The notes under the pieces are model-generated. The model did no database searches, was not told the origin of the DNA, and worked only from the letters and a program-made list of their open reading frames with translations. From positions 1 to 62,899 of IMG/VR virus record IMGVR_UViG_3300032304_001576: a DNA stretch of 62,899 bases; one strand, written 5' to 3'. Every line of letters starts with the position of its first letter. Position 1 is the stretch's first letter. Below, one piece after another: positions 6,577-36,965 of this stretch. The stretch is from a virus (lineage: Duplodnaviria; Caudoviricetes). The translations under genes and the position numbers were made by a program.

Positions 6577-6577
6577 T

Positions 6578-10819: not shown

Positions 10820-10927
10820 TATGGGCGCACTAGTGACTCTGAAAGGAGTTACTTAAAATCGTGCATTATACATAATAAAATTTTATTAACATTTTCATGA
10901 AATTAAAAGGTAACAATTTGATAACGG

Positions 10928-12396: not shown

Positions 12397-12401
12397 CTGA
12401 G

Positions 12402-21185: not shown

Positions 21186-21204
21186 TTAGATATATAATTG
21201 ATTC

Positions 21205-21681: not shown

Positions 21682-21724
21682 TGATATAATCTAGTAGAAA
21701 TATAAATTTTTTTGTGAGGTGCCC

Positions 21725-23413: not shown

Positions 23414-23440
23414 ATTTAAAGACTAGGGGGATAGGGAACC

Positions 23441-24940
23441 TTGGCCAGTATTGATAAAGATTTTAAGGTAAAGAACGGCCTTATTGTAGGCGACTCCACT
23501 AACCTTGTCAATTACACCTCATCGTCCCCATCAAATCCCTTTCTTGGTCAACTTTGGATTAGTGCAAGTAGCCTATATGCATGGTCTTCAGCGTCTACAT
23601 GGGTTCTAGTTGGTGACGGCGGCGGAGGTGGATCAGCCTCTGGAACTCCATTAAATATACCTAACACCCTAGTTTCTAGAAGTGCTTCTGGAATATTTTC
23701 TATTGGCGGGATAGACCTTGATCTTTCTGGAACAGTACCTCTAGGTGTAGGTAGGTTTCAATGGAATTCTTCTTTTGGCACTCCAGAAGTTGGTTTAACT
23801 GGCGGCAACGTTACCGCTCATATTGGTCAGCATGTTCATGCCTATGTAACAAACGCTCAAGGTTCCCCTCTTGTTAAAGGTGATGTTGTTTATTTATTTG
23901 GAGCGTCAGGAGATAGAGCATCTGTTAAAAAAGCAATTAACACAGGAGAACCCACATCTGCTAAAACTTTAGGTGTGGTGGCAGAGGCAATAACAACAGG
24001 AGGCCAAGGTTATGTTACTGTATTTGGCGTTGTCGATAAACTTAACTTAAGTGCATATTCACCTGGAGATACTTTATGGCTATCTGCTTCTGCTGGTAAA
24101 TTTACTAGCGTTAAACCTTCTGCTCCAAATCATGCAGTTTTTGTTGGTGTTGTAGAAAGAGCAAATGCTGGCAACGGTCAACTTTTTGTTAATGTTCAGA
24201 ATGGCTATCAGTTAGACGAACTTCATAATGTTTCAATAATAAATGCTGCAGACAACGATATAATTTCATACAATCAATCTGCTAGTTTATGGCTTAATCA
24301 AAATCTTGCAACTGCCATTACAGAGGTTGACGGAGCGGGATCAGGAATAGATGCCGATTTACTTGATGGTCAACATGCATCATATTTTCTTAATACTTCT
24401 AGTGCAACCCAAGAAAGAACGGGAACAACAACGTTCCATGGAACCGTTAATATTAATAATTTAGTTATTACAGGAAGTGCTACAACAATTAGTTCAACAA
24501 ACTTAGCACTTACAGACTCACTTATTCAACTGGCACATGAACAATATACAACAGATGCTGTAGATATTGGTCTAGTTGGATCTTATGGCGATGTCACAAC
24601 ATCTTCTGCAAATCATTATCATGCATCCTTTGCAAGAGATGCTTCACAAAATAAATGGAAACTTCTTTCAAAAGGACCATTAGCGGTCAATAATACCATT
24701 AACTATTCAGATCCATCTGTAGAGTTTGGTGTTTTGCAGATAGCAGCACTAGAAGTTTCATCGAGCACTGTCGTAACTAATTTTAATGCTGACATGCTAG
24801 ATGGTCAACATGCAAGTTACTTTTTGGCGGCAGGAACAGCATCTGCAACTTATCTTTCTCAAGCCAATGCTTCTGCAACTTATGTTACTAAACAAGAATT
24901 TGAGAATCTAAAGATTGCAACTATAATGGGAATTTACTAA
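23441..24940 (+). CDS. Tail fibre-like protein
   Basis: KDFKVKNG N-terminus, two AD(L/M)LDGQH motifs, QNGYQLDELHNV, DGAGSGIDADLLDG. Confidence 0.8.
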   Translation: MASIDKDFKVKNGLIVGDSTNLVNYTSSSPSNPFLGQLWISASSLYAWSSASTWVLVGDGGGGGSASGTPLNIPNTLVSRSASGIFSIGGIDLDLSGTVPLGVGRFQWNSSFGTPEVGLTGGNVTAHIGQHVHAYVTNAQGSPLVKGDVVYLFGASGDRASVKKAINTGEPTSAKTLGVVAEAITTGGQGYVTVFGVVDKLNLSAYSPGDTLWLSASAGKFTSVKPSAPNHAVFVGVVERANAGNGQLFVNVQNGYQLDELHNVSIINAADNDIISYNQSASLWLNQNLATAITEVDGAGSGIDADLLDGQHASYFLNTSSATQERTGTTTFHGTVNINNLVITGSATTISSTNLALTDSLIQLAHEQYTTDAVDIGLVGSYGDVTTSSANHYHASFARDASQNKWKLLSKGPLAVNNTINYSDPSVEFGVLQIAALEVSSSTVVTNFNADMLDGQHASYFLAAGTASATYLSQANASATYVTKQEFENLKIATIMGIY

Positions 24941-24975
24941 TATGAATGATATAATTTATAAAAAAGGAGGTTTAA

Positions 24976-25311
24976 GTGTCAACTTATAATCTTAAACAAT
25001 TAGTTCCTGCCAGACCTCTTCCTAGTTCTGCTAGTGTTTTATATACCGTTCCATCTTTAACTCAAACAGTAGTTAGACAAATAATTCTTGGAAATACCAC
25101 AGCAACAGATCTTACTGCAACTATATATTTTGTTCCAGACAGTGGATCACCATCTACGTCTAATTCAATGTTTCCAGAAATTATTATTCAAGCCAATAAT
25201 GCTGTGACAATAGATATTGCCAGCGTTTTGTCGTCTTCTTCATCAATTCACGCTAAAGCAAGTGCTTCTGCCTCTATAAATATTCATATCTCAGGAGTAG
25301 AGGTTAGTTAA
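24976..25311 (+). CDS. Small fibre-associated structural protein
   Basis: LYTVP...T.V..I...N...ISGVE pattern; AAGGAGG RBS. Confidence 0.75.
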   Translation: MSTYNLKQLVPARPLPSSASVLYTVPSLTQTVVRQIILGNTTATDLTATIYFVPDSGSPSTSNSMFPEIIIQANNAVTIDIASVLSSSSSIHAKASASASINIHISGVEVS

Positions 25312-26966
25312 TGTCTATAGAAAATATTCCAGTTACTGGGATATATAATACTCGCGGCGGAGAATCGGTATATGGACCTGGAACAGATGGAAATGTTACA
25401 ATAACAGGAACAGTCTCTTTAAATAGAGATATGTATTATAACAATCTAACTGTTCAATCTGGGGCACAACTGGATACAAATGGCTATAGGGTTTTTGTAA
25501 AAAATACTCTTAATATGTCAGACCCTACTGCAACGATAGGAAGACTTTCTAATACAACAACAACAGGAACTTTAAAAGGCGGTGCCGTAGCAGGTATCAA
25601 GGCATCTGATACTTTAGGGGGAAATGGAGGTCTAAACCCAGGAGAAAATTTTTTCGGGGAGGCCGAATTTTATAATTTTTCTCAGGCTATTGCTGGTTAT
25701 AAGTTTAATGCGGTTGCAGGAACATTAAAGTTTTTAATGGGTGGCAGCGGTGGTGCCTCTGGACCAGCAGGCGCAACAGGACAAAGTGGATCTTTTACCT
25801 CTGGAAGCCCAGGGACTTCTGGTAGCGCTGGATCTCTTGGCACCCGTCCAGGATTTACTGCATCAGTAGGGGCTCCTGGTGGACAGGGGTATCCAGGGAC
25901 TAGTGGTAGCGCAGGTTCTCCAGGAATTGGAGGCGCTGGTGGAGCAGGAGGTATAGGGGGGACTGGAGGCGCAGGCGGAGGGGTCGTAATAATATCAGCA
26001 AGATATATTACTGGATATGGAATAATTAGAGCCGATGGACTTGGAGGTCTGGCTGGCACCGCAGGATCTCCTGGATCTCCAGGTTCAAATGGATCTTCAG
26101 GGGCAAACGGAGTAGCAGGATTACCCGCACCAGACTTCTTTGAAGCAGCGTACACATATATATCACAGTATGCTTACAACTATTATTTTTCATATTCTAA
26201 TGAAGCCTATACTGTGTATGGTACAACATATAGTTATCCAGCGACTCCTACTGTTGGATATAATACCGCTTATGTCCCACCACAGTATGACCCACCTGTT
26301 CCAGCATATGGAGGAAATAGACCCACTACACTAGGAAATGAAGCAAGAGTAAATCCATTCGTTGCTTCATCTGGTGGAAATCAGATAAGAACAACTGGTG
26401 GAAATCAAAATCCTTTTGCAAGAAATCCAGCAAGACAATTCGGAGGAAACTTCAACCCTGTATCCGAACTTAGAGTAAATCCATTCGTTCCTTCATATGG
26501 TGGAAACCAGATAAGAGTAAATCCTACTACATATGGACCTGTTAACCCATTTGTCCCTGCTTATGCAGGATACTTCAAGCCAGGATATACAAATACTTAT
26601 GCATACCCATATGTGGCATATCCATTGGCAGCATATCCATTTAGCGTGTATATACCACCCTCGCCTGCGTCCAACTTTGAATTTTCACCACAACAAAATG
26701 CATTCGTTCCATCACAATTTTGGCCTGGTGGAGCAGGAGGCGCTGCTGGAATAGGTGGCGCGGGTGGAATTGGAAGCGCTGGATTACCAGGATCTCCAGG
26801 AACTTCTGGTTATGCTGGTGGTGGAGGCGTGGTGTTAGTGATTACTGAAAATAATATTACTGAAAATATAGAAATTCGTGCTGCTGCAGGCACAGGCGGC
26901 AGCGGCGCGGCAACATCAGGAACTGTTATAATTATTAAAAATGAGGCGGTAAAAAATGGCAATTAA
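25311..26966 (+). CDS. Gly-rich/collagen-like virion protein with a Pro/Tyr/Asn-rich repeat insert
   Basis: Gly-X-X runs, RVNPFV and GGN repeats; N-terminal domain paralogous to 26956..27630. Confidence 0.8.
   Translation: MSIENIPVTGIYNTRGGESVYGPGTDGNVTITGTVSLNRDMYYNNLTVQSGAQLDTNGYRVFVKNTLNMSDPTATIGRLSNTTTTGTLKGGAVAGIKASDTLGGNGGLNPGENFFGEAEFYNFSQAIAGYKFNAVAGTLKFLMGGSGGASGPAGATGQSGSFTSGSPGTSGSAGSLGTRPGFTASVGAPGGQGYPGTSGSAGSPGIGGAGGAGGIGGTGGAGGGVVIISARYITGYGIIRADGLGGLAGTAGSPGSPGSNGSSGANGVAGLPAPDFFEAAYTYISQYAYNYYFSYSNEAYTVYGTTYSYPATPTVGYNTAYVPPQYDPPVPAYGGNRPTTLGNEARVNPFVASSGGNQIRTTGGNQNPFARNPARQFGGNFNPVSELRVNPFVPSYGGNQIRVNPTTYGPVNPFVPAYAGYFKPGYTNTYAYPYVAYPLAAYPFSVYIPPSPASNFEFSPQQNAFVPSQFWPGGAGGAAGIGGAGGIGSAGLPGSPGTSGYAGGGGVVLVITENNITENIEIRAAAGTGGSGAATSGTVIIIKNEAVKNGN
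26346..26516 (+). repeat. 45-nt direct repeat (26346-26390 and 26472-26516, 3 mismatches)
   Basis: Encodes RVNPFV(A/P)S(S/Y)GGNQIR twice. Confidence 0.8.
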
Positions 26967-27630
26967 AAATTATGCTGGAAATTCAGCATCTACTACTTTT
27001 ATTCCAGACCCAATTTATGGTTCTGGAAAAGATGGAAATTCTACTGCATCTGCTAATTTTTCTCTTACTAGAGATATGTATTATAATAACTTAACTATTA
27101 ACTCTGGAGTCCATCTGAATACTAATGGGTACAGAGTTTTTGTTAGGAATATTTTACTTTTTAATGGATCTACAGATCAAGATGCTAACACTAGCCTAGG
27201 TCTTAAGAATGGATCTAATTCTGTAGGGTCTTTAGGAAGAGGTTTTACTGCTTCAGTTTCAAATAGCCTTGGTGGAAATAGCGCAAGTTATAATGCATTT
27301 GGCCCATCTGCTAGTTTCGGAGGGGCAGACTACTTTGACCGACCAGAATATGCCGTAGAAGGGTATATTTTAAATGCTATACAGCAAACTCCCCTGCCTT
27401 TAAATGGTGGCGCGGGGAATTCAACTAATCCTGGTGGAGGGGTGGTAGTAGTATCAGCAAGAAGAGTCTCTGGAAGGGGGACTATTTATGCCGATGGGTT
27501 TAATAATGGAACGGCATATTTAACGGGTGGTGGAGTAGCAATATATTGTTCTAATAAAATAAAACCTTCATCAATTAATATTAATACGTTAGGATATACA
27601 AGTGGATCAGCCCTACAGTTTGTGGTATAA
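26956..27630 (+). CDS. Gly-rich virion protein, paralogue of the preceding gene
   Basis: Shared YG.G.DGN, L.RDMYYNNLT, TNGYRVFV, GGGVV..SAR. Confidence 0.8.
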   Translation: MAIKNYAGNSASTTFIPDPIYGSGKDGNSTASANFSLTRDMYYNNLTINSGVHLNTNGYRVFVRNILLFNGSTDQDANTSLGLKNGSNSVGSLGRGFTASVSNSLGGNSASYNAFGPSASFGGADYFDRPEYAVEGYILNAIQQTPLPLNGGAGNSTNPGGGVVVVSARRVSGRGTIYADGFNNGTAYLTGGGVAIYCSNKIKPSSININTLGYTSGSALQFVV

Positions 27631-27633
27631 ATA

Positions 27634-28116
27634 ATGAAAGTCTATTTATATGTTCCAGAAGATTTAGATGCTTCAGAGTATCTTATAACGGCAGCACAAA
27701 ATAATATAGATCAGATAATCCACGGATCGTCTGATATATTAAAAGATCTTAAATATAATCATAATGAAGTCAGCGCAATAAATGTTCCAGAATTTTGCGG
27801 AGTCTGGATGGAGTCAGTAGTGTTCCCTACTGATACAGATGTACCTCTAGTTTTTATTGATGAGTGGAGTAATGAAAAAGGGTATAGTAAAATAACTGCT
27901 GTAATAGATGAAATAGATTTAGAAAATCCAAAAAAACACTCAACAATAGAAGAAGTTGAGTTAAACTATGATGATAAAAATTCATACTATTATAAATTTA
28001 GTTTTAAAAACATTGGTGAATATAGAATTAATTTAATGGCAGAATTTTTAGACGGGGAAAAAACTTTAATAGAGAGTAAAGACATTATTGTATTTAGAGG
28101 TAAAAATGGAAATTGA
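27634..28116 (+). CDS. Hypothetical protein
   Basis: ORF track; TGTGGTATAAAT extended -10-like element just upstream. Confidence 0.7.
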   Translation: MKVYLYVPEDLDASEYLITAAQNNIDQIIHGSSDILKDLKYNHNEVSAINVPEFCGVWMESVVFPTDTDVPLVFIDEWSNEKGYSKITAVIDEIDLENPKKHSTIEEVELNYDDKNSYYYKFSFKNIGEYRINLMAEFLDGEKTLIESKDIIVFRGKNGN

Positions 28117-28741
28117 TAAAAATATTCCAGGGCTTGCGTCCTTTGATCAAGTATTAATCTTTTCTGAAGAAGAAATAAACATGTTTGAAAATATATTCAA
28201 TAGTGATGAGTTTAAAAAACTTAATGAATCAAAAAGTATAAAAAACTCTCTATGGAATATATTTTACCATCTAGATTGTATAGAATTAATTAAAAAAATT
28301 CAAAAGACACTCTTAATTTGTTTAGCAGAATATTCAGATTATTATAAAGAGTCAATACATTCTATTCAATGGCAGGAAAGAATAGATTTAAAGATATTAT
28401 ACCCAGGCGAGTCAGAGTATATGTTTAATCCAAGTAAATCCTTCAATGTAAAAGATAATATACCTTTCAGCCGTCAAATAGTTGCTGAGATTGGTATTGA
28501 AGATGCTCACCATGGCGGCAAATCCTCATGGGAGTATTTTAATGTAGATGAGAAAATACTAAAATCTGGAGAGATAAGAATTTATCCTGCAAGTTACTTG
28601 TATTCAAATACTACATCAACTATACTGGATGGAAGAAAGATATATCTAAGGACATTCTTTAATGGTGGCAAAGACTTTATATCAGAAGATGAGTCTTTCG
28701 ATGGTTTTGAAAACATTTATATGTTTTCCTATATGAGATAA
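28106..28741 (+). CDS. Degenerate 2OG-Fe(II) oxygenase-like protein
   Basis: C-terminal GG...GEIRIYPASYLYS...ILDGRK pattern resembles the next gene, but metal-binding His/Asp residues are not evident. Confidence 0.55.
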   Translation: MEIDKNIPGLASFDQVLIFSEEEINMFENIFNSDEFKKLNESKSIKNSLWNIFYHLDCIELIKKIQKTLLICLAEYSDYYKESIHSIQWQERIDLKILYPGESEYMFNPSKSFNVKDNIPFSRQIVAEIGIEDAHHGGKSSWEYFNVDEKILKSGEIRIYPASYLYSNTTSTILDGRKIYLRTFFNGGKDFISEDESFDGFENIYMFSYMR

Positions 28742-28749
28742 GGATCGTA

Positions 28750-29397
28750 ATGACCACAGAGGCACCGTATCCCTCAAAAACTGAGGCAGGCTGCATTGAA
28801 ATATATAATAATATAATGCCTCAAAGTGCTGCAGATAAATTAATTGAATCGTTTGAGTTTTCAGATACTAGTAGTCTATGTAAGGCTGAATATTCAAAGG
28901 CACGCATGGGGGCGGGGCCACAATCTATTAATGGGGGTCTCTATAGATCTAATCAGACAATGAGCCTCTTCCCTCATGATTGTGAAGATAAAGATTGCAA
29001 GATGACTAATGCTATAGAGTATTTGTTAGAGAGATATGTTGCTTGCGTAAATCACTATCAATCAAAGTACGAGGTTGAGATAGGCTTTGACGAGGGCTTT
29101 CAATTGCTAAAGTATTCACCAGGAAATGAATACAAGGCTCACTCAGATAGTGGTCCAGGGCAAGATTTTAGAGTTGTATCTGGTCTAATTCTTTTGAATC
29201 CATCAGAATATATCGGAGGCGGAACGTACTTTACTAATTTTGACGTTACTATAAAAACAGATACGCCATCTATAATTTTATTCCCATCAAATTATGCTTA
29301 TATGCACAGGGCAAAAGCAGTACTTGATGGCATTAAGTACGCTATTGTTACATGGATGGGTCCACCATGGAGAGGTCCAGAATTACATGAACAATAA
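28750..29397 (+). CDS. 2OG-Fe(II) dioxygenase (prolyl-4-hydroxylase-like)
   Basis: QLLKY..G.EYKAHSD (HxD), YIGGGT.F, LFPSNYAYMH, GIKYAIVTW. Confidence 0.85.
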   Translation: MTTEAPYPSKTEAGCIEIYNNIMPQSAADKLIESFEFSDTSSLCKAEYSKARMGAGPQSINGGLYRSNQTMSLFPHDCEDKDCKMTNAIEYLLERYVACVNHYQSKYEVEIGFDEGFQLLKYSPGNEYKAHSDSGPGQDFRVVSGLILLNPSEYIGGGTYFTNFDVTIKTDTPSIILFPSNYAYMHRAKAVLDGIKYAIVTWMGPPWRGPELHEQ

Positions 29398-30601
29398 AAA
29401 AAGATTTGACAGTTATTCAAACACCTTTCTAAATTATGATGAAATAGAAAGACTTACTAAATCTATTTTTATTTCAATAGTTTCATATAATGATGAAAAT
29501 ATTTTAAGGACAATTAATTCAATAATGTTGAATTCTAAAAGACCTGAAAATATTTTTATTGGGCTGGCGGTAGTAGATTATCAAGAGTCTCATATAAAAA
29601 CTCTTTTAGAAATTAGTGAAAAGAATAGAAATTTAAATATTTATATAATTAATGAACGTACAACATATGGGTATCTAAAACATAAAGCCGATTCATTTTA
29701 TAACAAAGAAGACTACTATATGAGTGTTTCATCTTGCTCAGAATTTGACCCATATTGGGATGACATATTAATAAAACAATATGATGCATTTGAAACAATA
29801 ACCTCTCCACAACCACTATTAATAACTGGAGAGCCTAGAGGCTGGCTTCCACACGATAATGTGGTTGAGGGGTATGTATATTTTACTAATCATAGAACTA
29901 ATGCATCTATGCAAAGAGAAGTAAATGATTCATCCTACCTTCCTATATCTGGATATCATGAGAATATAAAAAAAGAACATCTTGAAAGTAATTTTTCTTC
30001 ATCAATGAGTGAGTATGATATATCAAGGTATATTACCGAACTATCTGAATGCTCAGAATTTCTAAAAGAAAATGGGTTTGTAAAGTTTTCAAAAAGAAAG
30101 TTCCTAGACGATGAATTTGTTGCAAGATCTCTAGGACTTTCTTGCAATTTTATTTTCACTAAAGCAAAAAACTATATAAAAATTAACACACTAAATAATA
30201 ATTTAATAGATGAGGAAGACTTTAATTTTAACTCAATGATTAACCTACTGAATAATGACTATTTAATTTTATCAACAAGGTATATCCCCCTGTATCATTT
30301 ATATGATAATAAAGAAGTATTTTCTTATAAAAGAAAAAGAATATCTGAAGAATATACTCCAGATGAAAAATTAAATATGAGGTCATATATTTTAGATAGA
30401 GTAAAGAATTTTGAATTCCTAGGTGATGATAAAAAATTATATTACTCTGTAATATTTAGCACAGACTGGTACGCTAGAGAATTCAAATTGAGGAAAAGTC
30501 ACATAAGAACTAGTCTAGAAACTTTGATAAACCTATCTATATCTATGTACAATTTCTCTATGAATGAAAACTCTCTACATTGGAATAAAAGGGACAGATG
30601 A
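29387..30601 (+). CDS. Gnt1/GT60-like glycosyltransferase homologue, DxH motif degenerate
   Basis: IFISIVSYND, SKRPENIFIG, EDYYMSVSSCSEFD.YWD, EEDF, PLYHLY. Confidence 0.6.
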   Translation: MNNKKRFDSYSNTFLNYDEIERLTKSIFISIVSYNDENILRTINSIMLNSKRPENIFIGLAVVDYQESHIKTLLEISEKNRNLNIYIINERTTYGYLKHKADSFYNKEDYYMSVSSCSEFDPYWDDILIKQYDAFETITSPQPLLITGEPRGWLPHDNVVEGYVYFTNHRTNASMQREVNDSSYLPISGYHENIKKEHLESNFSSSMSEYDISRYITELSECSEFLKENGFVKFSKRKFLDDEFVARSLGLSCNFIFTKAKNYIKINTLNNNLIDEEDFNFNSMINLLNNDYLILSTRYIPLYHLYDNKEVFSYKRKRISEEYTPDEKLNMRSYILDRVKNFEFLGDDKKLYYSVIFSTDWYAREFKLRKSHIRTSLETLINLSISMYNFSMNENSLHWNKRDR

Positions 30602-31305
30602 AAAAAATAATATTTACTATGACAGAACCAGACCTATCAGATGTAGCAGAATTCCCCTCACCATCTATTAAAAATCTACCAGAATGGTATAAAGAAATGT
30701 CTACTTTTATTGGTGGCGAAAAAATGAAAGTAGACAATGGTGAGGCCAATCTAACTGTTAAAAAATGTGTTCCCGTACTTGATGCGATATCATCTGGATA
30801 CATAATAAAGTTATGGACTGATGTTTTTGTATCTAGGGATGATAATGGAGTATCATACTCCTTTAGTGTAAAAAACAATAATGTGCCACCAGCAGTAACT
30901 GGCCACCCAATGGATCAGGCTCCGACTTATCCTATTAAAGATATGTACGATAAAGATATTCTGAAGTGGGTAAACCCATGGCATATAAAAACTCCAAGTG
31001 GGTACAGTACATTATTCACTACTCCAAATCATAGAGATCTACCTTTTGAAATAATGGAAGGGGTTGTAGATACAGATATATTCCCTCTTTCAGTTAACTT
31101 TCCATTTTTCATAAAAAAGGGTTTTGAAGGACTTATTCCATATGGGACTCCAATAGCCCAGGTTATTCCGTTTAAAAGAGATTCCTGGTCCTCTTCGGAA
31201 GGAGAGTTCGATCAGAAGAAGTATTCTTCTATGCATAATTTTCATGATAGCAACTTTATAAATAGATATAAGAGAAAATGGTGGAGCAGAAAGGTATATA
31301 AGTGA
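30598..31305 (+). CDS. Conserved phage protein, paralogue 1 (tentatively DUF6065-like)
   Basis: PEWYK, KKCVPVLDA..SGY, TPSGYS, GVVDTD, GTPIAQVIPFKR. Confidence 0.7.
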   Translation: MKKIIFTMTEPDLSDVAEFPSPSIKNLPEWYKEMSTFIGGEKMKVDNGEANLTVKKCVPVLDAISSGYIIKLWTDVFVSRDDNGVSYSFSVKNNNVPPAVTGHPMDQAPTYPIKDMYDKDILKWVNPWHIKTPSGYSTLFTTPNHRDLPFEIMEGVVDTDIFPLSVNFPFFIKKGFEGLIPYGTPIAQVIPFKRDSWSSSEGEFDQKKYSSMHNFHDSNFINRYKRKWWSRKVYK

Positions 31306-32045
31306 TTTTTAAAAAAAATAAAAATACAGTTAAAGAGTATTTAGATATAACTTTTGTGGCTAAAGATGAATTTATTGCAGAGGCGACACAGGCTCCTGTT
31401 CCAGCCAGAACATTAGTGCCAGAGTGGTATAAGGATATGTCAACTCATAGAACAAAAACACCCGACTTTGACGAACATTTTGGTAATCAAAATACTACAT
31501 TTAAAGCCTGTATGCCATTTTTTGATAGTTGGACTTTTGGCTATGTAGCAGTCACGCCGTGTGACCTAGTTGTTGAAGTTGGTTTTGATGAAAATGACAT
31601 TAAGATACACGGAAATAAAATTTTTGATCTTATTGGATATCGTGGGGCACCGAATAAACATTCTATGCCAATCCCAGATGATTACTATCAATTAGAGTTT
31701 ACATGGCAAACTCATTGGGAGGCCCAGACTCCTGATGGATACAGTTCTTTTTATACACATCCAATAAATAGGCCCGAACTACCATTCTATACAATATCTG
31801 GAGTAATGGATACTGATAAGTGGTATGCTACTGGAAATCATCCATTTTTCTTAAAAAAAGGTTTTGAGGGCATTATCCCCATGGGCACCCCAATGATGAG
31901 TATCATTCCTTTTAAAAGAGACACTTGGAAAAGTGATAAAAGATCAATGAGGCCGATGGAATACGATGTTTTAAATAGTAAAGTTAGAAGACATGCTTCT
32001 TCTGGGTATAAAAAAGAGATGTGGCAGAGAAAGGATTTTTCATAA
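31302..32045 (+). CDS. Conserved phage protein, paralogue 2
   Basis: PEWYK, KACMPFFDS..GY, TPDGYS, GVMDTD, GTPM..IIPFKR. Confidence 0.7.
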   Translation: MIFKKNKNTVKEYLDITFVAKDEFIAEATQAPVPARTLVPEWYKDMSTHRTKTPDFDEHFGNQNTTFKACMPFFDSWTFGYVAVTPCDLVVEVGFDENDIKIHGNKIFDLIGYRGAPNKHSMPIPDDYYQLEFTWQTHWEAQTPDGYSSFYTHPINRPELPFYTISGVMDTDKWYATGNHPFFLKKGFEGIIPMGTPMMSIIPFKRDTWKSDKRSMRPMEYDVLNSKVRRHASSGYKKEMWQRKDFS

Positions 32046-32737
32046 TGAAGGTAAAATGGATACCTCAGAACGAATTTGCTAGTAAGTTTATAGATCCGCC
32101 AAAGCCAGCAAAAAATTATATACCAGAATGGTATAAAAAACTACCGCAATTTACGACTGGTAATAGACCTAAATTTTTTGGTAAAAGAGCAAATACAACT
32201 GCAAAACATTGTATGCCATTGCTAGATTCATTTACTACTGGCTATATTCAGGAAACATGGTGCGACATAGCAGTTACTAGATTAGACAATGAAATTCAAG
32301 TTTCTTTTGCAGCACCAGAACAAAATCTTTTTGTAGATGGGCACGATAAAAATCCAATATTTCCAGAAACTGGGTACTATGATAAAATGTTAGCATGGTG
32401 GACCCAATGGGAGCCTCAGACTCCTAAGGGATGGTCTACACTATACACCCACCCGCTGAACCAAAATAATTTACCATTTTATACAATAAGCGGAGTCATT
32501 GATACAGATAAATGGCCTGTAGGTGGTAAAATTCAATTCTATATAAAAGATGGGTTCGAAGGAATAATTCCAAAAGGTACTCCTATGTATCAAATGATTT
32601 TTTTTAAGAGAGAGAACTGGAAATCAGAAGTTAATCCACATGATCAAGAATGGTTTGTTAAAACAAATAAAAAAGTTTTTGATTACTTCCATTCTGGATA
32701 TAGAAATAATATCTGGGTGAAAAAAAATTATGAATAA
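32045..32737 (+). CDS. Conserved phage protein, paralogue 3
   Basis: PEWYK, KHCMPLLDS..GY, TPKGWS, GVIDTD, GTPMYQMIFFKR. Confidence 0.7.
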   Translation: MKVKWIPQNEFASKFIDPPKPAKNYIPEWYKKLPQFTTGNRPKFFGKRANTTAKHCMPLLDSFTTGYIQETWCDIAVTRLDNEIQVSFAAPEQNLFVDGHDKNPIFPETGYYDKMLAWWTQWEPQTPKGWSTLYTHPLNQNNLPFYTISGVIDTDKWPVGGKIQFYIKDGFEGIIPKGTPMYQMIFFKRENWKSEVNPHDQEWFVKTNKKVFDYFHSGYRNNIWVKKNYE

Positions 32738-33872
32738 AAAGTCTATATTTGTATCTATACCGTCTATGAATGATAGAGAATATCTTCATACGGTTAAAAG
32801 ACTTTTCGAATCAGCAACTCACCCAGAAAGAATTTTTTTAGGCAGCACTATCTTTTGGAAAAAATCAGATATATCAGAAGTAGGAGCCCCATTCTTCTAT
32901 CACTTTGATCAACAACTTTCAAAAATAAAAAGAAATATAAAGTACGATATTTTATATTGGAATAATTACCCAGGGGTTGGATTTGGAAGAACAGAGCCTT
33001 TAAAACATTATAATAATGAAGATTATTATCTTTCATTAGATTCTCATACAATGTTTGTAAAAGGGTGGGACGAAAAAGTAATAGAGACTTATGAGAATGC
33101 AAAAAAAAGTTTTGGCAAACGACTAGTTTTAACTTCATATTTAGCCCCATATTATATTAAATCCGACAAAGATGCCCCTCTAGAAATAGACAAACTTCTT
33201 CCAGGAGTAGATGGTCTAGACGTATTTGAGTATGAAGATATAGTGTTTGTACAAAATGATAATGATCCAAGGTGGCAGTTTTTTGACTATACTCATTTTA
33301 GATATAGGTCTAACATTCAAACTAAAAGTATCTTTCCCTATCCAAATGATGTATCTTTAAATAGGGCTGGTCAATTTATTCTTCCACATTTAATAGATGA
33401 AATGTATTTGCCTGCTAAAAAAATATCTGCTCACTTTACTTTTACGGAAGCAGATCCATGGGTAACTAAATTTAATCTTAATTTAGATAGAAGAATATCT
33501 TTTTGGCTAGAAGAGTTTTATCAATCATCTTTATCCTATGCTAGAGGGTATAATCTTGTTTGGGCGAAAGAAACATTTTTCTTCCATAAATATTTAAACT
33601 CACAACACAGGCTACACGATCAAAAATATGAATATGACTCAATGTACAAAAAAAGAATTTTTTATGAAAAATATATAAAAACTATAGAAAATAAGACCCC
33701 GTTGCCGTTAGATGAAAATGAAATAATTAAAAAATTTCTCAATAAAGAAGAGTATTTTGGCTTTCTTCCTAGAAGCCCTATTTCTTTTCAAAAATACTCA
33801 GGAGTCAACCTAGAGATATCTAGGTGTGAACCGTGGTGGAAGGTGCCCGAGGTTGATATCATCTACAAATAA
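32730..33872 (+). CDS. Gnt1/GT60-like (Skp1-hydroxyproline GlcNAc-transferase-like) glycosyltransferase
   Basis: IFVSIPSMND.E, ATHPERIFLG, G.GFGR, EDYYLSLDSHTMF.KGWD, SAHFTF, WLEE, FFHKY. Confidence 0.75.
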   Translation: MNKKSIFVSIPSMNDREYLHTVKRLFESATHPERIFLGSTIFWKKSDISEVGAPFFYHFDQQLSKIKRNIKYDILYWNNYPGVGFGRTEPLKHYNNEDYYLSLDSHTMFVKGWDEKVIETYENAKKSFGKRLVLTSYLAPYYIKSDKDAPLEIDKLLPGVDGLDVFEYEDIVFVQNDNDPRWQFFDYTHFRYRSNIQTKSIFPYPNDVSLNRAGQFILPHLIDEMYLPAKKISAHFTFTEADPWVTKFNLNLDRRISFWLEEFYQSSLSYARGYNLVWAKETFFFHKYLNSQHRLHDQKYEYDSMYKKRIFYEKYIKTIENKTPLPLDENEIIKKFLNKEEYFGFLPRSPISFQKYSGVNLEISRCEPWWKVPEVDIIYK

Positions 33873-34587
33873 AAATATTTATATTCCTTTTAGAGAAGAC
33901 AGTATAACCAATAGGAATGAAATGTTCAAAGTGGTAAAAGAATATTATAATAACTTGGGGTATAACGTAGTCGCTCTAGACTCAGGAGATGATGACTTTA
34001 ACCTATCTAAGTCAAGGAATATGGCCTTCACTAACTACGATGATAATGAAGTTATATTAATAAATGCAGACTGCCTGATCTTTGATATGGCAATAGAGGA
34101 TTCTTTGAAATTAATAAAAGAAAGATCTTCTATTGTAAAACCATTCTTAAAACTTTTAAGAGTTTCAGCCATAGATAAAAAATTTATTGAATCTATCATA
34201 GATAATGAAATTTTTGATATAAAGATAGAGTCTCAAAGTAATAGTTTTTATCCTGGAGAGGCTTTTATTTTAAATAAAAGTTCTTGGGAAAAAGTTGGCG
34301 GGTTCAATGAAAATCTTTTAGACCCAATAATATCAAGTATAGACTTCTGCCTGAGAGCATCAGAATTATCAGAGTTAGTATTTTTAGAATACGATGCATA
34401 TAGTTTTCATCATCCAAAAGTCTCTGGAAGAAAAGAAAGAGATGGAGAGTCCCACCTATTTGAAGTGAATAAATCATTTTTTAATGGTGATAAAAATATT
34501 TATTTATCAAGATTTGGGAACAAACTTATTAAAATGAATGAAAGTGAAAATAAAATCAGTTTAATATTTAATTTAGAAAACTATTAA
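33826..34587 (+). CDS. GT-A fold glycosyltransferase (GT2/GT7C-like)
   Basis: IPFR, FNLSKSRN, LINADC, WEKVGGFNE; true start uncertain (TTG at 33853 possible). Confidence 0.7.
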   Translation: MNRGGRCPRLISSTNKNIYIPFREDSITNRNEMFKVVKEYYNNLGYNVVALDSGDDDFNLSKSRNMAFTNYDDNEVILINADCLIFDMAIEDSLKLIKERSSIVKPFLKLLRVSAIDKKFIESIIDNEIFDIKIESQSNSFYPGEAFILNKSSWEKVGGFNENLLDPIISSIDFCLRASELSELVFLEYDAYSFHHPKVSGRKERDGESHLFEVNKSFFNGDKNIYLSRFGNKLIKMNESENKISLIFNLENY

Positions 34588-35539
34588 TAAGTTCGTTTTC
34601 ATTACTAAGTCCCCGAACACCATCAATAAATAAGTCTTGCATATTAACTTTAGCGTACTCTTGAAACTTTTTAATCTTGTGTTTATTAGAAATATAATAA
34701 TTAATGATTTCTTCTTTTGCTTCACTTCTATATAAAAATTCTGTGGATAGAATTTCTCTTTTACCCCCAATAGAATTAATATCCTCATAGTAAAGATGAG
34801 CCACAGGCATAGGCTCTAGTGGAGTTAGCAGTTTGAATCCATGATGGATTAATTCTATAGACATAAATAACTCTTCCTCTGGAAGAGTATAGTCGTATTG
34901 TATTAAAGAGTCATAGTTTTCAGCGAATTGTTGATCTCCAAATAATAAACCTCCAGAAATTTTTTGGTTCAATTCAAAATTTCCTGGAGAGTCATCAACC
35001 ACTCTATCATTAAAATTGGGGAGTATATTGTATATACTTGGGTCATCGCGGTACTGAGTGGATGAGATATTAGTATCAATAAAATAAGATACTGCTGGAA
35101 ACCATGAGTACCGCAAACTAATTCCATTTTCAGTATAAAAATAAGAATCAGGGTAGCCAGTTATAACAGATTTTCCAAAGATACTTTGCCCACGAATTAA
35201 TTGATCGATAAGAGTTAAGTCCCAATCCTTTTTATAAAGGCTATGGCAGTCCACTTGGAGCATATAATCCTCTCCTGAGTACATCTCATAAGCCTTCCTT
35301 CTTCCCACCCCTGTACCCATGTGATTAGTTGAACTGTAATATTTAAAATTACTTTTAGGAACTATTTGCTGTATTTCTTTTCCAATATTTAATATATCTT
35401 CTTTACTTAAAACTCTAGATGAATGAGCAATTCCTAAAAATATTTCATTCTCTCCGCTAGATTGAGATAAACAACTCTTAATAGATTTTATTAGTTCAGA
35501 GTCAGATAAACTACATATAGAAACATATATGCTGGACAT
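34568..35539 (-). CDS. Gnt1/GT60-like glycosyltransferase
   Basis: IYVSICSLSD.E, GTGVGR, EDYMLQVDCHSLY.KDWD, VITGY, ISGGLLF, PEEE, VAHLY. Confidence 0.75.
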   Translation of the reverse strand: MSSIYVSICSLSDSELIKSIKSCLSQSSGENEIFLGIAHSSRVLSKEDILNIGKEIQQIVPKSNFKYYSSTNHMGTGVGRRKAYEMYSGEDYMLQVDCHSLYKKDWDLTLIDQLIRGQSIFGKSVITGYPDSYFYTENGISLRYSWFPAVSYFIDTNISSTQYRDDPSIYNILPNFNDRVVDDSPGNFELNQKISGGLLFGDQQFAENYDSLIQYDYTLPEEELFMSIELIHHGFKLLTPLEPMPVAHLYYEDINSIGGKREILSTEFLYRSEAKEEIINYYISNKHKIKKFQEYAKVNMQDLFIDGVRGLSNENELINSFLN

Positions 35540-35554
35540 TTAATATTCCTGTCT

Positions 35555-36052
35555 TTAGTTAAAGGTTTCTAGCCATTCAGAATAAGTATAATAATTTCCA
35601 TCTTCTGCTAAGAATTTAGTAAAATTATCTTGGTATTCTATACACCACTTTTTTAACATCTCATTAACAAATGGCTCGCGTTGATCAAGGGGAGGAGGCA
35701 TTAGAAGAACTTGATTGTAATATGCTAAATAAGATTTAATAGCGCTACCGATCCAGTACCCAATTCCATTGCTCTGAAAAAAAGAATTTACAGTTAAAGA
35801 TGTAACGTAAAATACGTTGCCATTTAATCCGGTAAACCATCCAATAGATGCAACAATAAATTCTGGATTAATGTCGTAATTATTATCAAATATAATAGAC
35901 TTATTATCGTGATCGGGATTGTTTATTAAAAAGGCTTTCTTAAAACCATTGGGCTCGTCCTTGATGTTTAACCAAGAATTTTCTACAATAGTAGGCCAAT
36001 AAGTAGTTAAAAATTCTAAATCATAAACCATTCCATTTAATTCTTCACGCAT
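35555..36052 (-). CDS. Putative GNAT-like acetyltransferase
   Basis: YVTSLTVNSFFQSNGIG resembles the acetyl-CoA-binding motif A (Q/RxxGxG). Confidence 0.5.
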   Translation of the reverse strand: MREELNGMVYDLEFLTTYWPTIVENSWLNIKDEPNGFKKAFLINNPDHDNKSIIFDNNYDINPEFIVASIGWFTGLNGNVFYVTSLTVNSFFQSNGIGYWIGSAIKSYLAYYNQVLLMPPPLDQREPFVNEMLKKWCIEYQDNFTKFLAEDGNYYTYSEWLETFN

Positions 36053-36107
36053 TATTCTTCTCCATTTATAAATAATTATACCCTTTTCATCAATATTAGT
36101 TTATAAT

Positions 36108-36965
36108 ATGAATCAAATGATTAAATATTTAGGCTCAGTCGGAGCATTTATTAGACTTAATGATAGCGAAAATAAAACCTATACCCTTTTAAATGTATAT
36201 TCCTCTTCAGCCGCACAATTATCATTATTTTCTGCAAGTGTCAACAATCTATCTGGCGCGGTCACATTTAACTCTGCCTCAACATCTTTATATGTGAATG
36301 GAGTATCTGGGTCAGTTATTCCAGGCAAACAATGGGCGCATGTCACGTTCTCTTTTAATGATAAGTTGGCCACCTATGACACCAATAATTTTTTAATTAG
36401 ATTCGGACATGCTGCATCAAGTAACTTCAACATACAAAATCTTTACATACTAGAGAACTCGTTTACTGATTCAGAGGTTGCCTACCTTCATCAAGAATTT
36501 ACAGGCGGCACGACAAATAAATTGACCGTTCCACCTTCGGCTTCATACTCTATCAACATTATTGATTACCCAGAAACTAATTTCACCTCTGCCTCTACAA
36601 ATGTAATTTATCAGCCATCATTTGGACAAAACAAATATCTTATGGATATAAGTGCGGTGGCAGAGGAAAGCCTTAGTAAATTTGTTTCTGCATCAGTAAT
36701 GACCAACGATAACTTATACATAGACTCAGTAAATGTAAGTATTGGGGATAATATTTTATCTTTAGCGGACAATCAAATATATAGGCTAACATCATCTTCA
36801 CAACTTATTACCGTTTCAAGTTCTGTAGGAGATGTTGTTAAAGTTTTATATGGACAGTATTTCAACCGAATCTCTTTCATAAAGACTGCGAGTGGGTTCA
36901 ACGTTGAGCCAATAGTGGTAAAAATTAACTCATACCTGAACACAATACAGTCAAATAATGCCTAG
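36108..36965 (+). CDS. Virion structural protein (LamG-like segment)
   Basis: LYVNG...WAHV.F; [ST]AS-rich like the other surface proteins. Confidence 0.7.
   Translation: MNQMIKYLGSVGAFIRLNDSENKTYTLLNVYSSSAAQLSLFSASVNNLSGAVTFNSASTSLYVNGVSGSVIPGKQWAHVTFSFNDKLATYDTNNFLIRFGHAASSNFNIQNLYILENSFTDSEVAYLHQEFTGGTTNKLTVPPSASYSINIIDYPETNFTSASTNVIYQPSFGQNKYLMDISAVAEESLSKFVSASVMTNDNLYIDSVNVSIGDNILSLADNQIYRLTSSSQLITVSSSVGDVVKVLYGQYFNRISFIKTASGFNVEPIVVKINSYLNTIQSNNA

What the first reader, a model, noticed from the sequence alone, without database searches (positions are those of the whole stretch)
25311..36052. Candidate phage-encoded hydroxylation plus glycosylation system for virion decoration
Seen: directly after the fibre and Gly/Pro-rich virion genes lies an AT-rich block with a 2OG-Fe(II) dioxygenase (HxD...H), three glycosyltransferases with the IF(V/I)SI.S..D and EDY.L..D(S/C)H..F/Y...WD pattern (one degenerate), a GT2/GT7C-like enzyme, three tandem paralogues and a GNAT-like protein. 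Established: this GT pattern resembles Gnt1 (CAZy GT60), which in protists adds GlcNAc to hydroxyproline made on Skp1 by the 2OG prolyl hydroxylase PhyA; glycosylated capsid and tail tube proteins are known in some actinophages. Inference: the phage may run a PhyA/Gnt1-like multi-step pathway on its own structural proteins, for example on the Pro-rich insert of 25311..26966.
Basis: partly seen in the sequence, partly recalled or inferred. Interest (0 to 1): 0.85.

Follow-up and report, generated by a model that had tools for sequence, protein, structure and literature searches.

The report
Phage fibre hydroxylase and glycosyltransferase cassette
An uncultured long-tailed phage carries, between its fibre-like genes and its head genes, a conserved set of proline-hydroxylase-type, protein-type sugar-transferase and dUTPase-shaped enzymes that most likely decorate its own fibre proteins, although no chemistry has been shown.

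Summary
Pfam places 28750-29397 in the prolyl-hydroxylase family PF13640. It places 29387-30601, 32730-33872 and 34568-35539(-) in PF11397 (Gnt1/GT60-like). A GT2-like gene and three tandem paralogues lie between them, in an AT-rich block just after the fibre and Gly-rich genes.

New points:
- The block also holds a second 2OG-like protein without the iron triad.
- One GT60 line lacks DxH in 7 of 7 orthologues.
- The three paralogues have a dUTPase fold with an invariant Cys. They belong to the family of Syn9 gp43 (Iyer et al. 2010). In 71 of 80 other viral loci this family sits in tail-fibre modules.

The whole cassette is syntenic in 6 related viral contigs. It diverges much faster than the head genes. 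It is an insertion relative to Streptomyces phage Bmoc.

Best reading (about 0.5): the phage hydroxylates and glycosylates its own fibre or Gly-rich proteins. A Skp1-like Hyp-O-sugar linkage is only one option (about 0.25). DNA modification is unlikely. Host-protein or peptide targets remain open.

The scan found a near-identical cassette before on other DNA (e1-6122873). I rate it a new variant of a known kind, of moderate interest.

The parts
17943..21185 (+). 1080-aa LamG/ConA-like structural-type protein. It marks the left border of the inserted module.
   Evidence: PF13385 Laminin_G_3, E 1.2e-6, 29.1 bits. Its N-terminal 277 aa is homologous to Bmoc gp43, which in Bmoc lies just before gp44 and the portal.
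21205..21681 (+). 158-aa protein carrying the fibre C-terminal domain
   Evidence: 36% identity over 123 aa to the C-terminus of 21719-23413, E 6e-15.
21719..23413 (+). 564-aa Ser/Thr-rich fibre-like structural protein
   Evidence: phrog_697 structural protein, 4.9e-38. 28% Ser+Thr.
23441..24940 (+). 499-aa tail-fibre-like protein
   Evidence: Tail-fibre PHROGs 19602, 8443 and 5342. Conserved in related loci at 34-78% identity.
24976..25311 (+). 111-aa fibre-module protein (phrog_1276 family)
   Evidence: phrog_1276, 4.3e-7. Homologues accompany the dUTPase-fold family in 47 of 80 other viral loci.
25311..26966 (+). 551-aa Gly-rich protein (20% Gly, 8% Pro) with short G-X-Y runs and a variable Pro/Tyr/Asn-rich insert. 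This is the candidate substrate.
   Evidence: It has the highest 'PG' density of the 47 window ORFs tabulated (13 sites). G-X-Y runs reach up to 13 triplets, and orthologues carry (G-X-P) runs at about residues 243-272. PF01391 Collagen is below cut-off (16.4 against 27.2 bits). phrog_5073 tail fibre, 1.7e-5. The insert is variable and expanded in L008.
26956..27630 (+). 224-aa Gly-rich paralogue of the N-terminal part of the 551-aa protein
   Evidence: Reciprocal BLAST links in all related loci. Sequence read.
27634..28116 (+). 160-aa conserved protein of unknown family
   Evidence: No Pfam or PHROG hit. Orthologues in 6 related loci at 32-58% identity.
28106..28741 (+). 2OG-oxygenase-like protein without the iron-binding triad (pseudo-oxygenase)
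   Evidence: In the Atlas feature search, 26 of 30 hits are PF13640 clusters. It aligns with the active line. HxD and the distal His are absent in 7 of 7 orthologues. The L016 orthologue hits the active oxygenase by BLAST at 2e-6. The start is given.
28750..29397 (+). Prolyl-4-hydroxylase-type 2OG-Fe(II) oxygenase, predicted active
   Evidence: PF13640, 36.9 bits. phrog_61, 3e-25. H131, D133, H186 and K196 are conserved. The family profile's best solved matches are P4Hs. The model has pLDDT 92.5 and its neighbours are prolyl hydroxylases.
29387..30601 (+). PF11397 (GT60-like) protein lacking the DxH motif. It is probably non-catalytic or mechanistically altered.
   Evidence: PF11397, 44 bits. 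S-S-x stands in place of D-x-H in 7 of 7 orthologues. Start confirmed.
30598..31305 (+). dUTPase-fold, conserved-Cys protein, line A (phrog_7084, Syn9 gp43 family)
   Evidence: phrog_7084, 9.2e-53. Model pLDDT 89.4. The top 22 structural matches are all dUTPase or dCTP deaminase, Z 9.8-5.3, and the next is 3.1. hhalign to Syn9 gp43 gives 97.2%, E 3.6e-11.
31302..32045 (+). dUTPase-fold protein, line B
   Evidence: phrog_7084, 1.7e-39. Positional orthologues are 64-79% identical.
32021..32737 (+). dUTPase-fold protein, line C
   Evidence: phrog_7084, 2.3e-35. Positional orthologues are 51-72% identical.
32730..33872 (+). PF11397 (GT60-like) glycosyltransferase with an intact DSH motif, predicted active
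   Evidence: PF11397, E 1.9e-23, 83.9 bits. DSH is present in 7 of 7 orthologues. All 47 metagenomic homologues carry PF11397.
33826..34587 (+). GT2-like (GT-A) glycosyltransferase, a possible chain-extending enzyme
   Evidence: phrog_1721 galactosyl transferase, 2.4e-15. PF10111 is below cut-off at 20.9 bits. Present in all related loci at 25-55% identity.
34568..35539 (-). Third PF11397 glycosyltransferase (DCH motif), a variable accessory gene
   Evidence: PF11397, 58.5 bits. Among the related loci it is found only in the window and its 99% twin L007. GT60c-like genes lie beside dUTPase-fold genes in L059 and L082.
35555..36052 (-). 165-aa possible GNAT acetyltransferase (lead only)
   Evidence: Atlas features score 0.94 to GNAT clusters. 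No Pfam or PHROG hit. A homologue is present only in L007 and L010.
36108..36965 (+). 285-aa Ser/Thr-rich structural-type protein. It marks the right border, before the gp44-like gene and the portal.
   Evidence: Weak LamG match, E 0.032. Conserved at 50-96% identity in all related loci.

Best explanation
The block 17943-36965 is a single accessory module for fibre proteins and their modification.

Proposed mechanism:
1. After translation in the host cytoplasm, the P4H-type oxygenase (28750-29397) hydroxylates prolines of co-encoded fibre-type proteins. It may be paired with its iron-less paralogue (28106-28741). The most likely target is the Gly-rich 551-aa protein, at its X-Pro-Gly sites or its Pro-rich insert.
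2. The DxH-bearing GT60-like transferases (32730-33872, and in this phage also 34568-35539) attach a first sugar to the protein, on Hyp or on Ser/Thr.
3. The GT2-like enzyme (33826-34587) extends the glycan.
4. The DxH-less GT60 paralogue (29387-30601) acts as a non-catalytic partner.
5. The three dUTPase-fold, conserved-Cys proteins are a further, still unknown fibre-maturation activity.

Shown here: the family and fold assignments, the catalytic-motif status, synteny, and the fibre-module association.

Inferred: the target, the linkage, the donor sugar, the order of steps and every partner role.
For: 1. Enzyme families.
- The oxygenase matches PF13640, and three genes match PF11397 above cut-off.
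- The oxygenase-family profile hits 59 solved sequences. All are protein prolyl/lysyl hydroxylases or PKHD-type hydroxylases.
- The Foldseek neighbours shown are almost all prolyl hydroxylases, TM up to 0.72.

2. Active and degenerate pairs are conserved.
- The iron triad is present in 7 of 7 orthologues of one oxygenase line and 0 of 7 of the other.
- DxH is present in 7 of 7 orthologues of one GT60 line and 0 of 7 of the other.

3. The cassette is one unit together with the fibres.
- Bmoc has only gp43-gp44-portal where this phage has LamG-like gene, fibres, enzymes, gp44-like gene, portal.
- The order is identical in L008, L010, L011, L012, L014 and L016.
- Similar sets of Gly551-like, 2OG, GT60 and dUTPase-fold genes occur in the more distant L020 and L021.

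4. The cassette and fibre genes are 25-79% identical between loci, while portal and MCP are 80-97% identical. Fast divergence of this kind is typical of host-interaction genes.

5. The dUTPase-fold family is a fibre-module family.
- 71 of 80 other viral loci have a fibre marker within 8 kb.
- 56 of 80 have a protein with at least 18% Gly, at a median of 344 bp from the dUTPase-fold gene.
- 30 of 80 have one of three GT kinds.
- In Syn9 the homologous gp43 and its dioxygenase array follow the fibre and fibre-assembly genes directly.

6. A plausible substrate is present.
- Gly551 has 13 Pro-Gly sites, and its orthologues have 20-26, with (G-X-P) runs.
- X-Pro-Gly is the collagen P4H site (recalled knowledge).
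Against: - There is no chemistry and no virion proteomics.
- The window's own Gly551 has few G-X-P triplets. PF01391 is below cut-off.
- Among the 80 other dUTPase-fold loci, 2OG or GT60 genes are present in only 13. Of those 13, 8 have a Gly-rich ORF, against 48 of the other 67. So there is no enrichment of the oxygenase or transferase with Gly-rich proteins. Those Gly-rich proteins also have few Pro-Gly sites.
- By sequence the oxygenase family is also close to enzymes that hydroxylate EF-Tu (B. anthracis P4H entry 5v7y; P. putida PPHD 4iw3), so a host target is possible.
- No fused oxygenase-GT form was found (weak evidence).
- In HF2 and S-RIM4 the dUTPase-fold homologue lies beside ribonucleotide reductase.
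- Iyer et al. 2010 read the cyanophage arrays as secondary-metabolite machinery.
Confidence: 0.5

Rival explanations
1. Same target class (the phage's own fibre proteins) but no Hyp-sugar link. The P4H only stabilises or marks the Gly/Pro-rich protein. The GT60-type enzymes independently O-glycosylate Ser/Thr of the very Ser/Thr-rich fibre proteins, as the mucin-type GT60 enzymes of Trypanosoma and Dictyostelium do (recalled).
For: The fibre-type proteins have 20-29% Ser+Thr. In 13 other loci the 2OG and GT60 genes occur separately as often as together: 6 with 2OG only, 4 with GT60 only, 3 with both.
Against: In this lineage the oxygenase pair and the GT60 pair are always adjacent and translationally coupled. 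The only characterised P4H-plus-GT60 pairing that I recall is sequential; only search listings of the Skp1 papers were seen.
Confidence: 0.25
2. Host take-over. The hydroxylase and transferases modify a host protein, for example EF-Tu or a ribosomal or defence protein, during infection. The position beside fibre genes is incidental.
For: Close solved relatives include enzymes that hydroxylate EF-Tu (5v7y, 4iw3). The oxygenase belongs to a huge phage family of unknown role: 2017 representatives at E<=1e-3, phrog_61.
Against: The cassette is co-inserted and co-conserved with fibre genes. The dUTPase-fold partner family is tied to fibre modules in 71 of 80 loci. The cassette diverges fast, as the fibres do.
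Confidence: 0.12
3. Peptide or secondary-metabolite tailoring. The oxygenases, the dUTPase-fold Cys enzymes and the transferases build or modify a small peptide or metabolite. Iyer et al. 2010 proposed this for the Syn9-type arrays.
For: The three paralogues are homologous to Syn9 gp43. Passages of PMC2938197 describe that array and the proposal.
Against: The block has no peptide synthetase, halogenase or obvious precursor gene. The Syn9 array itself follows the fibre and fibre-assembly genes.
Confidence: 0.08
4. DNA base hypermodification. The oxygenase hydroxylates a base, the GTs glycosylate it, and the dUTPase-fold proteins adjust nucleotide pools.
For: The three paralogues have the dUTPase fold. 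Homologues lie beside ribonucleotide reductase in HF2 and S-RIM4.
Against: The oxygenase profile hits no nucleic-acid oxygenase among its 59 solved matches. No PF12851 match was found, although that search's control did not ring. No PF00145 match was found in 3 of 3 records. The family does not score as dUTPase by sequence: 1 of 40 members at E 0.13, and hhalign to an HF2 dCTP-deaminase-like protein gave probability 0.2. It sits in fibre modules, with RNR nearby in only 3 of 80 loci.
Confidence: 0.05
5. Host envelope remodelling. The transferases alter host cell-wall glycans, for example for superinfection exclusion.
For: Phage GTs that alter host surface glycans are known (recalled).
Against: PF11397 enzymes are soluble protein-modifying GTs (recalled). 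This reading gives no role to a P4H. The closest isolates are the Streptomyces phages.
Confidence: 0.04

Closest known systems
Skp1 hydroxyproline glycosylation of Dictyostelium and Toxoplasma (PhyA prolyl 4-hydroxylase, then Gnt1 of GT60/PF11397, then extending GTs)
   Same: A P4H-superfamily oxygenase is encoded with PF11397 transferases and a further GT-A enzyme. All are cytoplasmic and soluble, and several sugar-adding steps are possible. For the pathway papers I saw only the search listing and the starts of the abstracts.
   Different: This is a phage, not a protist, and there is no Skp1. By sequence profile the oxygenase is nearer to collagen-type P4Hs (2.3e-18) than to PhyA (6e-5). One GT60 and one oxygenase are catalytically degenerate. 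Three dUTPase-fold proteins are interleaved. The linkage to Hyp is not shown.
[quoted passage not shown]
   Same: It has the same dUTPase-fold Cys family (hhalign 97.2% to Syn9 gp43), next to classical 2OG oxygenases and directly behind tail-fibre genes.
   Different: Syn9 has ten dioxygenases and two halogenases, and 'glycosyltransferase' does not occur in the paper's main text. Here there is one active oxygenase, three copies of the dUTPase-fold gene and three or four GTs. The authors proposed metabolite synthesis, not virion modification.
Virus-encoded collagen or Pro-repeat hydroxylation: PBCV-1 prolyl 4-hydroxylase (5c5t) and Mimivirus L230 lysyl hydroxylase/glucosyltransferase (6ax6)
   Same: A viral P4H-family enzyme sits beside the virus's own repeat proteins. 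PBCV-1 P4H is the fourth-best solved match of the family profile, behind three B. anthracis P4H sequences, at E 1.5e-15. L230 also matches, at 0.014.
   Different: Those are giant viruses of eukaryotes. The glycosylation there is on hydroxylysine by a GT unrelated to PF11397 (recalled).
Mycobacteriophage virion glycosylation (Freeman et al. 2023). I saw it only as a cited reference and in listings. The paper is not held.
   Same: Actinophage-type siphoviruses encode their own GTs and decorate virion proteins.
   Different: As I recall, the targets there are capsid and tail-tube C-termini, and no hydroxylase is involved. The GT families were not compared here.

Membership tests
PF11397 / CAZy GT60 (Gnt1-like polypeptide GlcNAc-transferases) | Profile match above Pfam's curated cut-off (21 bits) | tested here: met
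   83.9, 58.5 and 44.0 bits for 32730-33872, 34568-35539(-) and 29294-30601. Confirmed on the DNA.
PF11397 / CAZy GT60 (Gnt1-like polypeptide GlcNAc-transferases) | Metal-binding DxH/DxD-type motif of GT-A enzymes | tested here: met
   D-S-H is present in 7 of 7 orthologues of 32730-33872, and D-C-H in 34568-35539. It is NOT met in the 29387-30601 line (S-S-x in 7 of 7). That line is filed only as a degenerate homologue.
PF11397 / CAZy GT60 (Gnt1-like polypeptide GlcNAc-transferases) | Acceptor is a protein hydroxyl (Hyp or Thr/Ser) and the donor is UDP-GlcNAc | not testable with these tools
   No solved relative could be found by sequence. An enzyme assay is needed.
Prolyl 4-hydroxylase family (PF13640, 2OG-FeII_Oxy_3) | Profile match above cut-off, plus the HxD...H iron triad and the basic 2OG-binding residue | tested here: met
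   36.9 bits against 27. H131, D133 and H186 are invariant in 60 sequences and K196 is nearly so. Conserved in 7 of 7 orthologues.
Prolyl 4-hydroxylase family (PF13640, 2OG-FeII_Oxy_3) | Closest characterised relatives are peptidyl-prolyl hydroxylases | tested here: met
   All 59 solved hits are protein hydroxylases or PKHD-type hydroxylases. The Foldseek neighbours are almost all PHD and P4H enzymes.
PhyA-type (Skp1) prolyl hydroxylase specifically | Closer to PhyA/PHD than to collagen-type P4H | tested here: inconclusive
   The sequence profile favours B. anthracis and PBCV-1 P4H (2.3e-18, 1.5e-15) over PhyA 6t8m (6e-5). By structure, TM is higher to PHD-type (0.72) than to collagen-type (about 0.6), and PhyA ranks 40th.
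Trimeric dUTPase / dCTP deaminase (PF00692) | Fold | tested here: met
   The top 22 of 48,161 chains are all of this superfamily, Z 9.8-5.3, and the next is 3.1.
Trimeric dUTPase / dCTP deaminase (PF00692) | Sequence-family membership | tested here: not met
   1 of 40 family members reaches PF00692, at E 0.13. The profile finds no solved chain at E<=10. hhalign to the HF2 dCTP-deaminase-like protein gives probability 0.2. The proteins are therefore not filed as dUTPases. The state of the triphosphate-binding motifs was judged only by eye against recalled motifs.
Syn9 gp43-like conserved-Cys dUTPase-fold family (phrog_7084; weakly DUF6065) | Homology to gp43 or the PHROG, the invariant Cys, and a neighbourhood with 2OG oxygenases | tested here: met
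   phrog_7084 at 9e-53 to 2e-35. hhalign to Syn9 gp43 is 97.2%. C57 is invariant in 40 of 40 sequences. A 2OG gene is adjacent here and lies within 8 kb in 9 of 80 other loci. DUF6065 is only below cut-off, in 19 of 40 members.
Collagen triple-helix repeat (PF01391), for 25311-26966 | Profile match above cut-off and long uninterrupted G-X-Y | tested here: not met
   16.4 bits against 27.2. The runs are only 4-13 triplets long. I call it 'collagen-like', not collagen.
GNAT acetyltransferase, for 35555-36052 | Profile match | tested here: inconclusive
   No Pfam hit at E<=5 and no PHROG hit. The Atlas feature score is 0.94 with 160 shared features, which is a lead only.

The most novel reading that the evidence does not exclude
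Tailed phages of bacteria run their own hydroxyproline-glycoprotein pathway. A collagen-type P4H and GT60 transferases, each working with a dedicated catalytically dead paralogue, build Hyp-O-linked glycans on a Gly/Pro-rich fibre protein. The widespread conserved-Cys dUTPase-fold family (Syn9 gp43 and phrog_7084, with thousands of metagenomic members) is a new class of fibre-protein-modifying enzyme, not a nucleotide enzyme. If so, the abundant 'orphan' phage 2OG oxygenases would be explained as virion-tailoring enzymes that tune adsorption or evade host recognition.
Probability: 0.22. Interest if true: 0.8.

Novelty: new variant of a known kind. Interest (0 to 1): 0.55.

Why it matters
If the reading is right, three things follow.
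- Hydroxyproline-linked, or at least hydroxylase-coupled, protein glycosylation would extend from protists, plants and giant viruses to ordinary tailed phages.
- The very large family of phage P4H-like oxygenases (2017 representatives at E<=1e-3) would gain a concrete, testable substrate.
- The uncharacterised dUTPase-fold family (2930 homologues) would gain a biological context, namely fibre maturation.

Modified fibres could affect host range, adsorption and recognition of phage particles. The cassette is compact and could be expressed in E. coli together with its candidate substrate.

Its weight is limited in three ways. Nothing is shown chemically. The phage is uncultured. The same theme has already been noted several times in this scan and, in part, by Iyer et al. 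2010.

Tried and rejected
- Near-identical DNA in the phage collection: none.
- GT60b by tblastn in isolated phages: a single weak hit, Xanthomonas phage Xoo-sp13, 24% identity over 41% of the query.
- Solved relatives by sequence: none for the GTs. None for the dUTPase-fold family.
- Foldseek of the dUTPase-fold model against the PDB gave only weak hits, best E 7.5e-3. The wide VIA search was what made the fold clear.
- BFVD returned only uncharacterised phage proteins and then dUTPases.
- Fused oxygenase-GT proteins: none found among longer homologues (weak evidence). The five longer oxygenase hits carry only PF13640.
- A heterotrimer of the three paralogues was tried with complex prediction. 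It gave no verdict, because a control scored higher than the complex. I draw nothing from it.
- The idea that the three paralogues are nucleotide-pool enzymes was rejected as the main reading after the neighbourhood census.
- The extra ORF of about 170 aa seen in relatives has no family assignment.
- Literature searches found no description of a phage P4H-plus-GT60 system: 'GT60'+'phage', 'virion glycosylation', 'DUF6065' (0 papers), P4H+bacteriophage+collagen-like+tail fiber (0 papers), and hydroxyproline+phage+GT+prolyl hydroxylase+tail (3 irrelevant papers).
- Supplementary data of Iyer et al. 2010, which may list this family's members, could not be seen.

Full report
**What the window is.** It is a 62.9-kb IMG/VR virus record, estimated about 50% complete.
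- Its portal is about 52% identical to those of large Streptomyces siphophages such as Bmoc (Stanwilliamsviridae).
- Its ThyX, tRNA cluster, class II-type ribonucleotide reductase, head genes and tail genes follow the same plan.
- No near-identical DNA exists in the isolate collection.

**Check of the observation.**
- Oxygenase: 28750-29397 is in PF13640 (E 7.2e-9, 36.9 bits against a cut-off of 27).
- PF11397 transferases: 32730-33872 scores 83.9 bits, 34568-35539(-) scores 58.5 bits and 29294-30601 scores 44 bits, all against a cut-off of 21. A DNA-level search confirmed them.
- GT2-like gene: 33826-34587 is sub-threshold for PF10111 but matches phrog_1721 at 2.4e-15.
- The three tandem paralogues are all phrog_7084.
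- The enzyme genes have GC 0.27-0.39. The head genes have 0.41-0.48.
- The 'GNAT-like' gene is supported only by a language-model feature search. Pfam and PHROGs give nothing.
- The likely start of the first transferase is 29387.

**What was added to the anatomy.**
1. 28106-28741 is a second 2OG-oxygenase-like protein.
   - In the Atlas feature search, 26 of 30 hits are PF13640 clusters.
   - It aligns with the active enzyme, but HxD and the distal His are missing in 7 of 7 orthologues. The active line keeps them in 7 of 7.
2. The GT60 line at 29387-30601 has S-S-x in place of D-x-H in 7 of 7 orthologues.
   - The line at 32730-33872 has D-S-H in 7 of 7.
   - 34568-35539 has D-C-H.
   - So the cassette holds an active and a degenerate member of each enzyme type, both conserved.
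3. The three paralogues are three distinct orthologous lines, each closest to its positional counterpart in every related locus.
   - A model of the first (pLDDT 89.4) matches only dUTPase or dCTP-deaminase chains at the top of a search of 48,161 chains. There are 22 such rows, Z 9.8 to 5.3, and the next is Z 3.1.
   - By sequence they are not dUTPases.
   - The family is large, with 2930 homologues at E<=1e-5, all unnamed.
   - It has an invariant Cys and many invariant polar residues, which suggests an enzyme.
   - It is homologous to Syn9 gp43 (hhalign 97.2%, E 3.6e-11).
   - Iyer et al. [quoted passage not shown]

**The oxygenase.**
- An exhaustive search found 2017 representatives at E<=1e-3, mostly stand-alone proteins of 170-220 aa.
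- A profile of 60 of them hits 59 solved sequences. All are protein prolyl/lysyl hydroxylases or PKHD-type hydroxylases.
- The matches run from B. anthracis P4H (2.3e-18), PBCV-1 P4H (1.5e-15) and algal P4H (1.5e-11) down through PHD2 (1e-7), P. putida PPHD and LH3, to Dictyostelium PhyA (6e-5) and Mimivirus L230 (0.014).
- No nucleic-acid oxygenase appears among them.
- The AF2 model (pLDDT 92.5) has prolyl hydroxylases as neighbours, with TM up to 0.72.
- The enzyme is therefore a prolyl-hydroxylase-type oxygenase. Whether it is 'collagen-type' or 'PHD/PhyA-type' is not resolved.

**Context.**
- In Bmoc the order is RNR, endolysin, gp43, gp44, portal.
- The 1080-aa LamG-like protein (17943-21185) is homologous to gp43, and 36984-37310 is homologous to gp44.
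- Everything between them is therefore extra relative to Bmoc. That comprises fibre-like proteins, the Gly-rich pair, the enzymes and the 285-aa protein.
- The same order is kept in L008, L010, L011, L012, L014 and L016, and in fragments L007, L013, L015 and L017.
- Three variable features:
  - An extra ORF of about 170 aa in five loci.
  - The minus-strand GT60, present only here and in the 99% twin.
  - The 165-aa gene, present only here, in L007 and in L010.
- Portal and MCP are 80-97% identical between these loci. Cassette and fibre genes are only 25-79% identical.
- More distant contigs L020 and L021 hold similar sets: a p111-like gene, a Gly551-like gene, a Gly224-like gene, 2OG, GT60 and dUTPase-fold genes.

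**Where the dUTPase-fold family lives.** I took 80 further viral loci (L020-L099, 38-51% identical to line A) and called, clustered and annotated their ORFs.

| Feature within 8 kb of the dUTPase-fold gene | Loci (of 80) |
|---|---|
| Any fibre-module marker | 71 |
| Fibre C-terminal domain cluster | 61 |
| p111-like, phrog_1276 | 47 |
| Fibre cluster | 34 |
| ORF with at least 18% Gly (median 344 bp away) | 56 |
| One of three GT kinds | 30 |
| 2OG oxygenase | 9 |
| PF11397 transferase | 7 |
| Ribonucleotide reductase | 3 |

- Copy number per locus is 1 in 55 loci, 2 in 21, 3 in 3 and 4 in 1.
- In Syn9, gp43 and the oxygenase array follow the fibre and fibre-assembly genes directly.
- In HF2 and S-RIM4 the homologue is next to ribonucleotide reductase. 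In HF2 it is also at the end of the tail module.
- I conclude that this is a fibre-module family. That removes the main argument for a nucleotide or DNA role.

**Candidate substrate.**
- 25311-26966 has 20% Gly and 8% Pro, and the highest Pro-Gly density of the 47 window ORFs tabulated (13 sites).
- Its orthologues have 20-26 such sites, with ten-triplet runs that are mostly G-X-P. That is the X-Pro-Gly context of collagen P4Hs (recalled).
- The central Pro/Tyr/Asn-rich insert is variable and expanded in L008.
- Against this:
  - The window's own copy has few G-X-P triplets.
  - PF01391 is below cut-off.
  - In the 13 other loci with 2OG or GT60, Gly-rich ORFs are not enriched: 8 of 13 against 48 of 67. 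Those ORFs also have few Pro-Gly sites.

**Rivals.**
- DNA hypermodification is unlikely. No C5-methylase or dUTPase family match appears in this record, in G001 (88% complete) or in G002 (72% complete). No Tet_JBP match appears either, though that control did not ring. The oxygenase has no nucleic-acid relatives.
- Host-protein modification remains possible, because related enzymes hydroxylate EF-Tu.
- The metabolite reading of Iyer et al. lacks any synthetase or precursor gene here.
- Within the favoured reading, the sugar may sit on Ser/Thr rather than Hyp.

**Prior knowledge.** I found no paper describing a phage P4H-plus-GT60 system.
- Iyer et al. 2010 predicted hydroxylation of bacterial collagen-like or tail-collar proteins by co-encoded dioxygenases. 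They also described the dUTPase-fold partner.
- Virion glycosylation in mycobacteriophages is known. I saw it only as a citation, and the paper is not held.
- Earlier notes of this scan describe a near-identical cassette on another genome (e1-6122873) and several related fibre-plus-P4H cassettes. They also note a bacterial fusion of GT60 modules with P4H-like domains (e1-2149009). I could not confirm that fusion; my search for fused forms found none.

**Verdict.** The most likely function is enzymatic decoration of the phage's own fibre-type proteins (about 0.5). A Skp1-like Hyp-O-glycan is one specific possibility (about 0.22-0.25). I rate it a new variant of a known kind, of moderate interest.

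Noticed in passing
window 46520-57844: The tape-measure-position ORF is 3774 aa, against about 2110 aa in Bmoc (6.3 kb). This implies an unusually long tail.
   Followed up: no
window 12401-12474: ARAGORN calls a tRNA-Tyr with anticodon ATA. It lies in a run of three tRNAs (Ser-GCT, Arg-TCT, Tyr-ATA). An A34 Tyr tRNA is unusual.
   Followed up: no
window 38908-41139: The prohead-protease gene encodes 743 aa, against 423 aa in Bmoc. The ends match Bmoc gp47 and the middle is extra. The middle carries a Hva1_TUDOR match at 7.5e-9 and weak DUF5824 and DUF2959 matches.
   Followed up: no
window 13625-14596: This 323-aa ORF sits where Bmoc has a glycosyltransferase (gp40, upstream of RNR). It has no similarity to gp40 and no Pfam or PHROG hit.
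   Followed up: partly
window 1-11000: The left 11 kb has GC 0.45-0.54 and few long ORFs. The rest of the contig has GC 0.29-0.48. This is strong compositional heterogeneity within one phage.
   Followed up: no
L010:1610-2122, L011:6101-6637, L012:6146-6652, L014:5404-5913, L016:6143-6649: An extra ORF of about 170 aa lies between the oxygenase and the first GT60 in five relatives. It is absent from the window and from L008. Its only family signal is a very weak 2OG-FeII_Oxy_2 hit, E 0.039, in one of four tested.
   Followed up: partly
L037:5959-6243 and 43 other loci: A small gene of about 94-106 aa (phrog_7759/14370) lies immediately upstream of the dUTPase-fold gene, at a median of 37 bp, in 44 of 80 loci. 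It could be a dedicated partner. No counterpart was recognised in the window.
   Followed up: no
L009 (HF2 48119-49003) and L019 (S-RIM4 158324-159118): Single-copy homologues of the dUTPase-fold family lie beside ribonucleotide reductase genes in a halovirus and a cyanomyovirus. HF2 also has a separate canonical dUTPase/dCTP-deaminase-like gene.
   Followed up: partly
L093:350-5382: One viral contig carries five 2OG-oxygenase-like genes in tandem with a dUTPase-fold gene among them. This is a Syn9-like array outside the cyanophage isolates.
   Followed up: no
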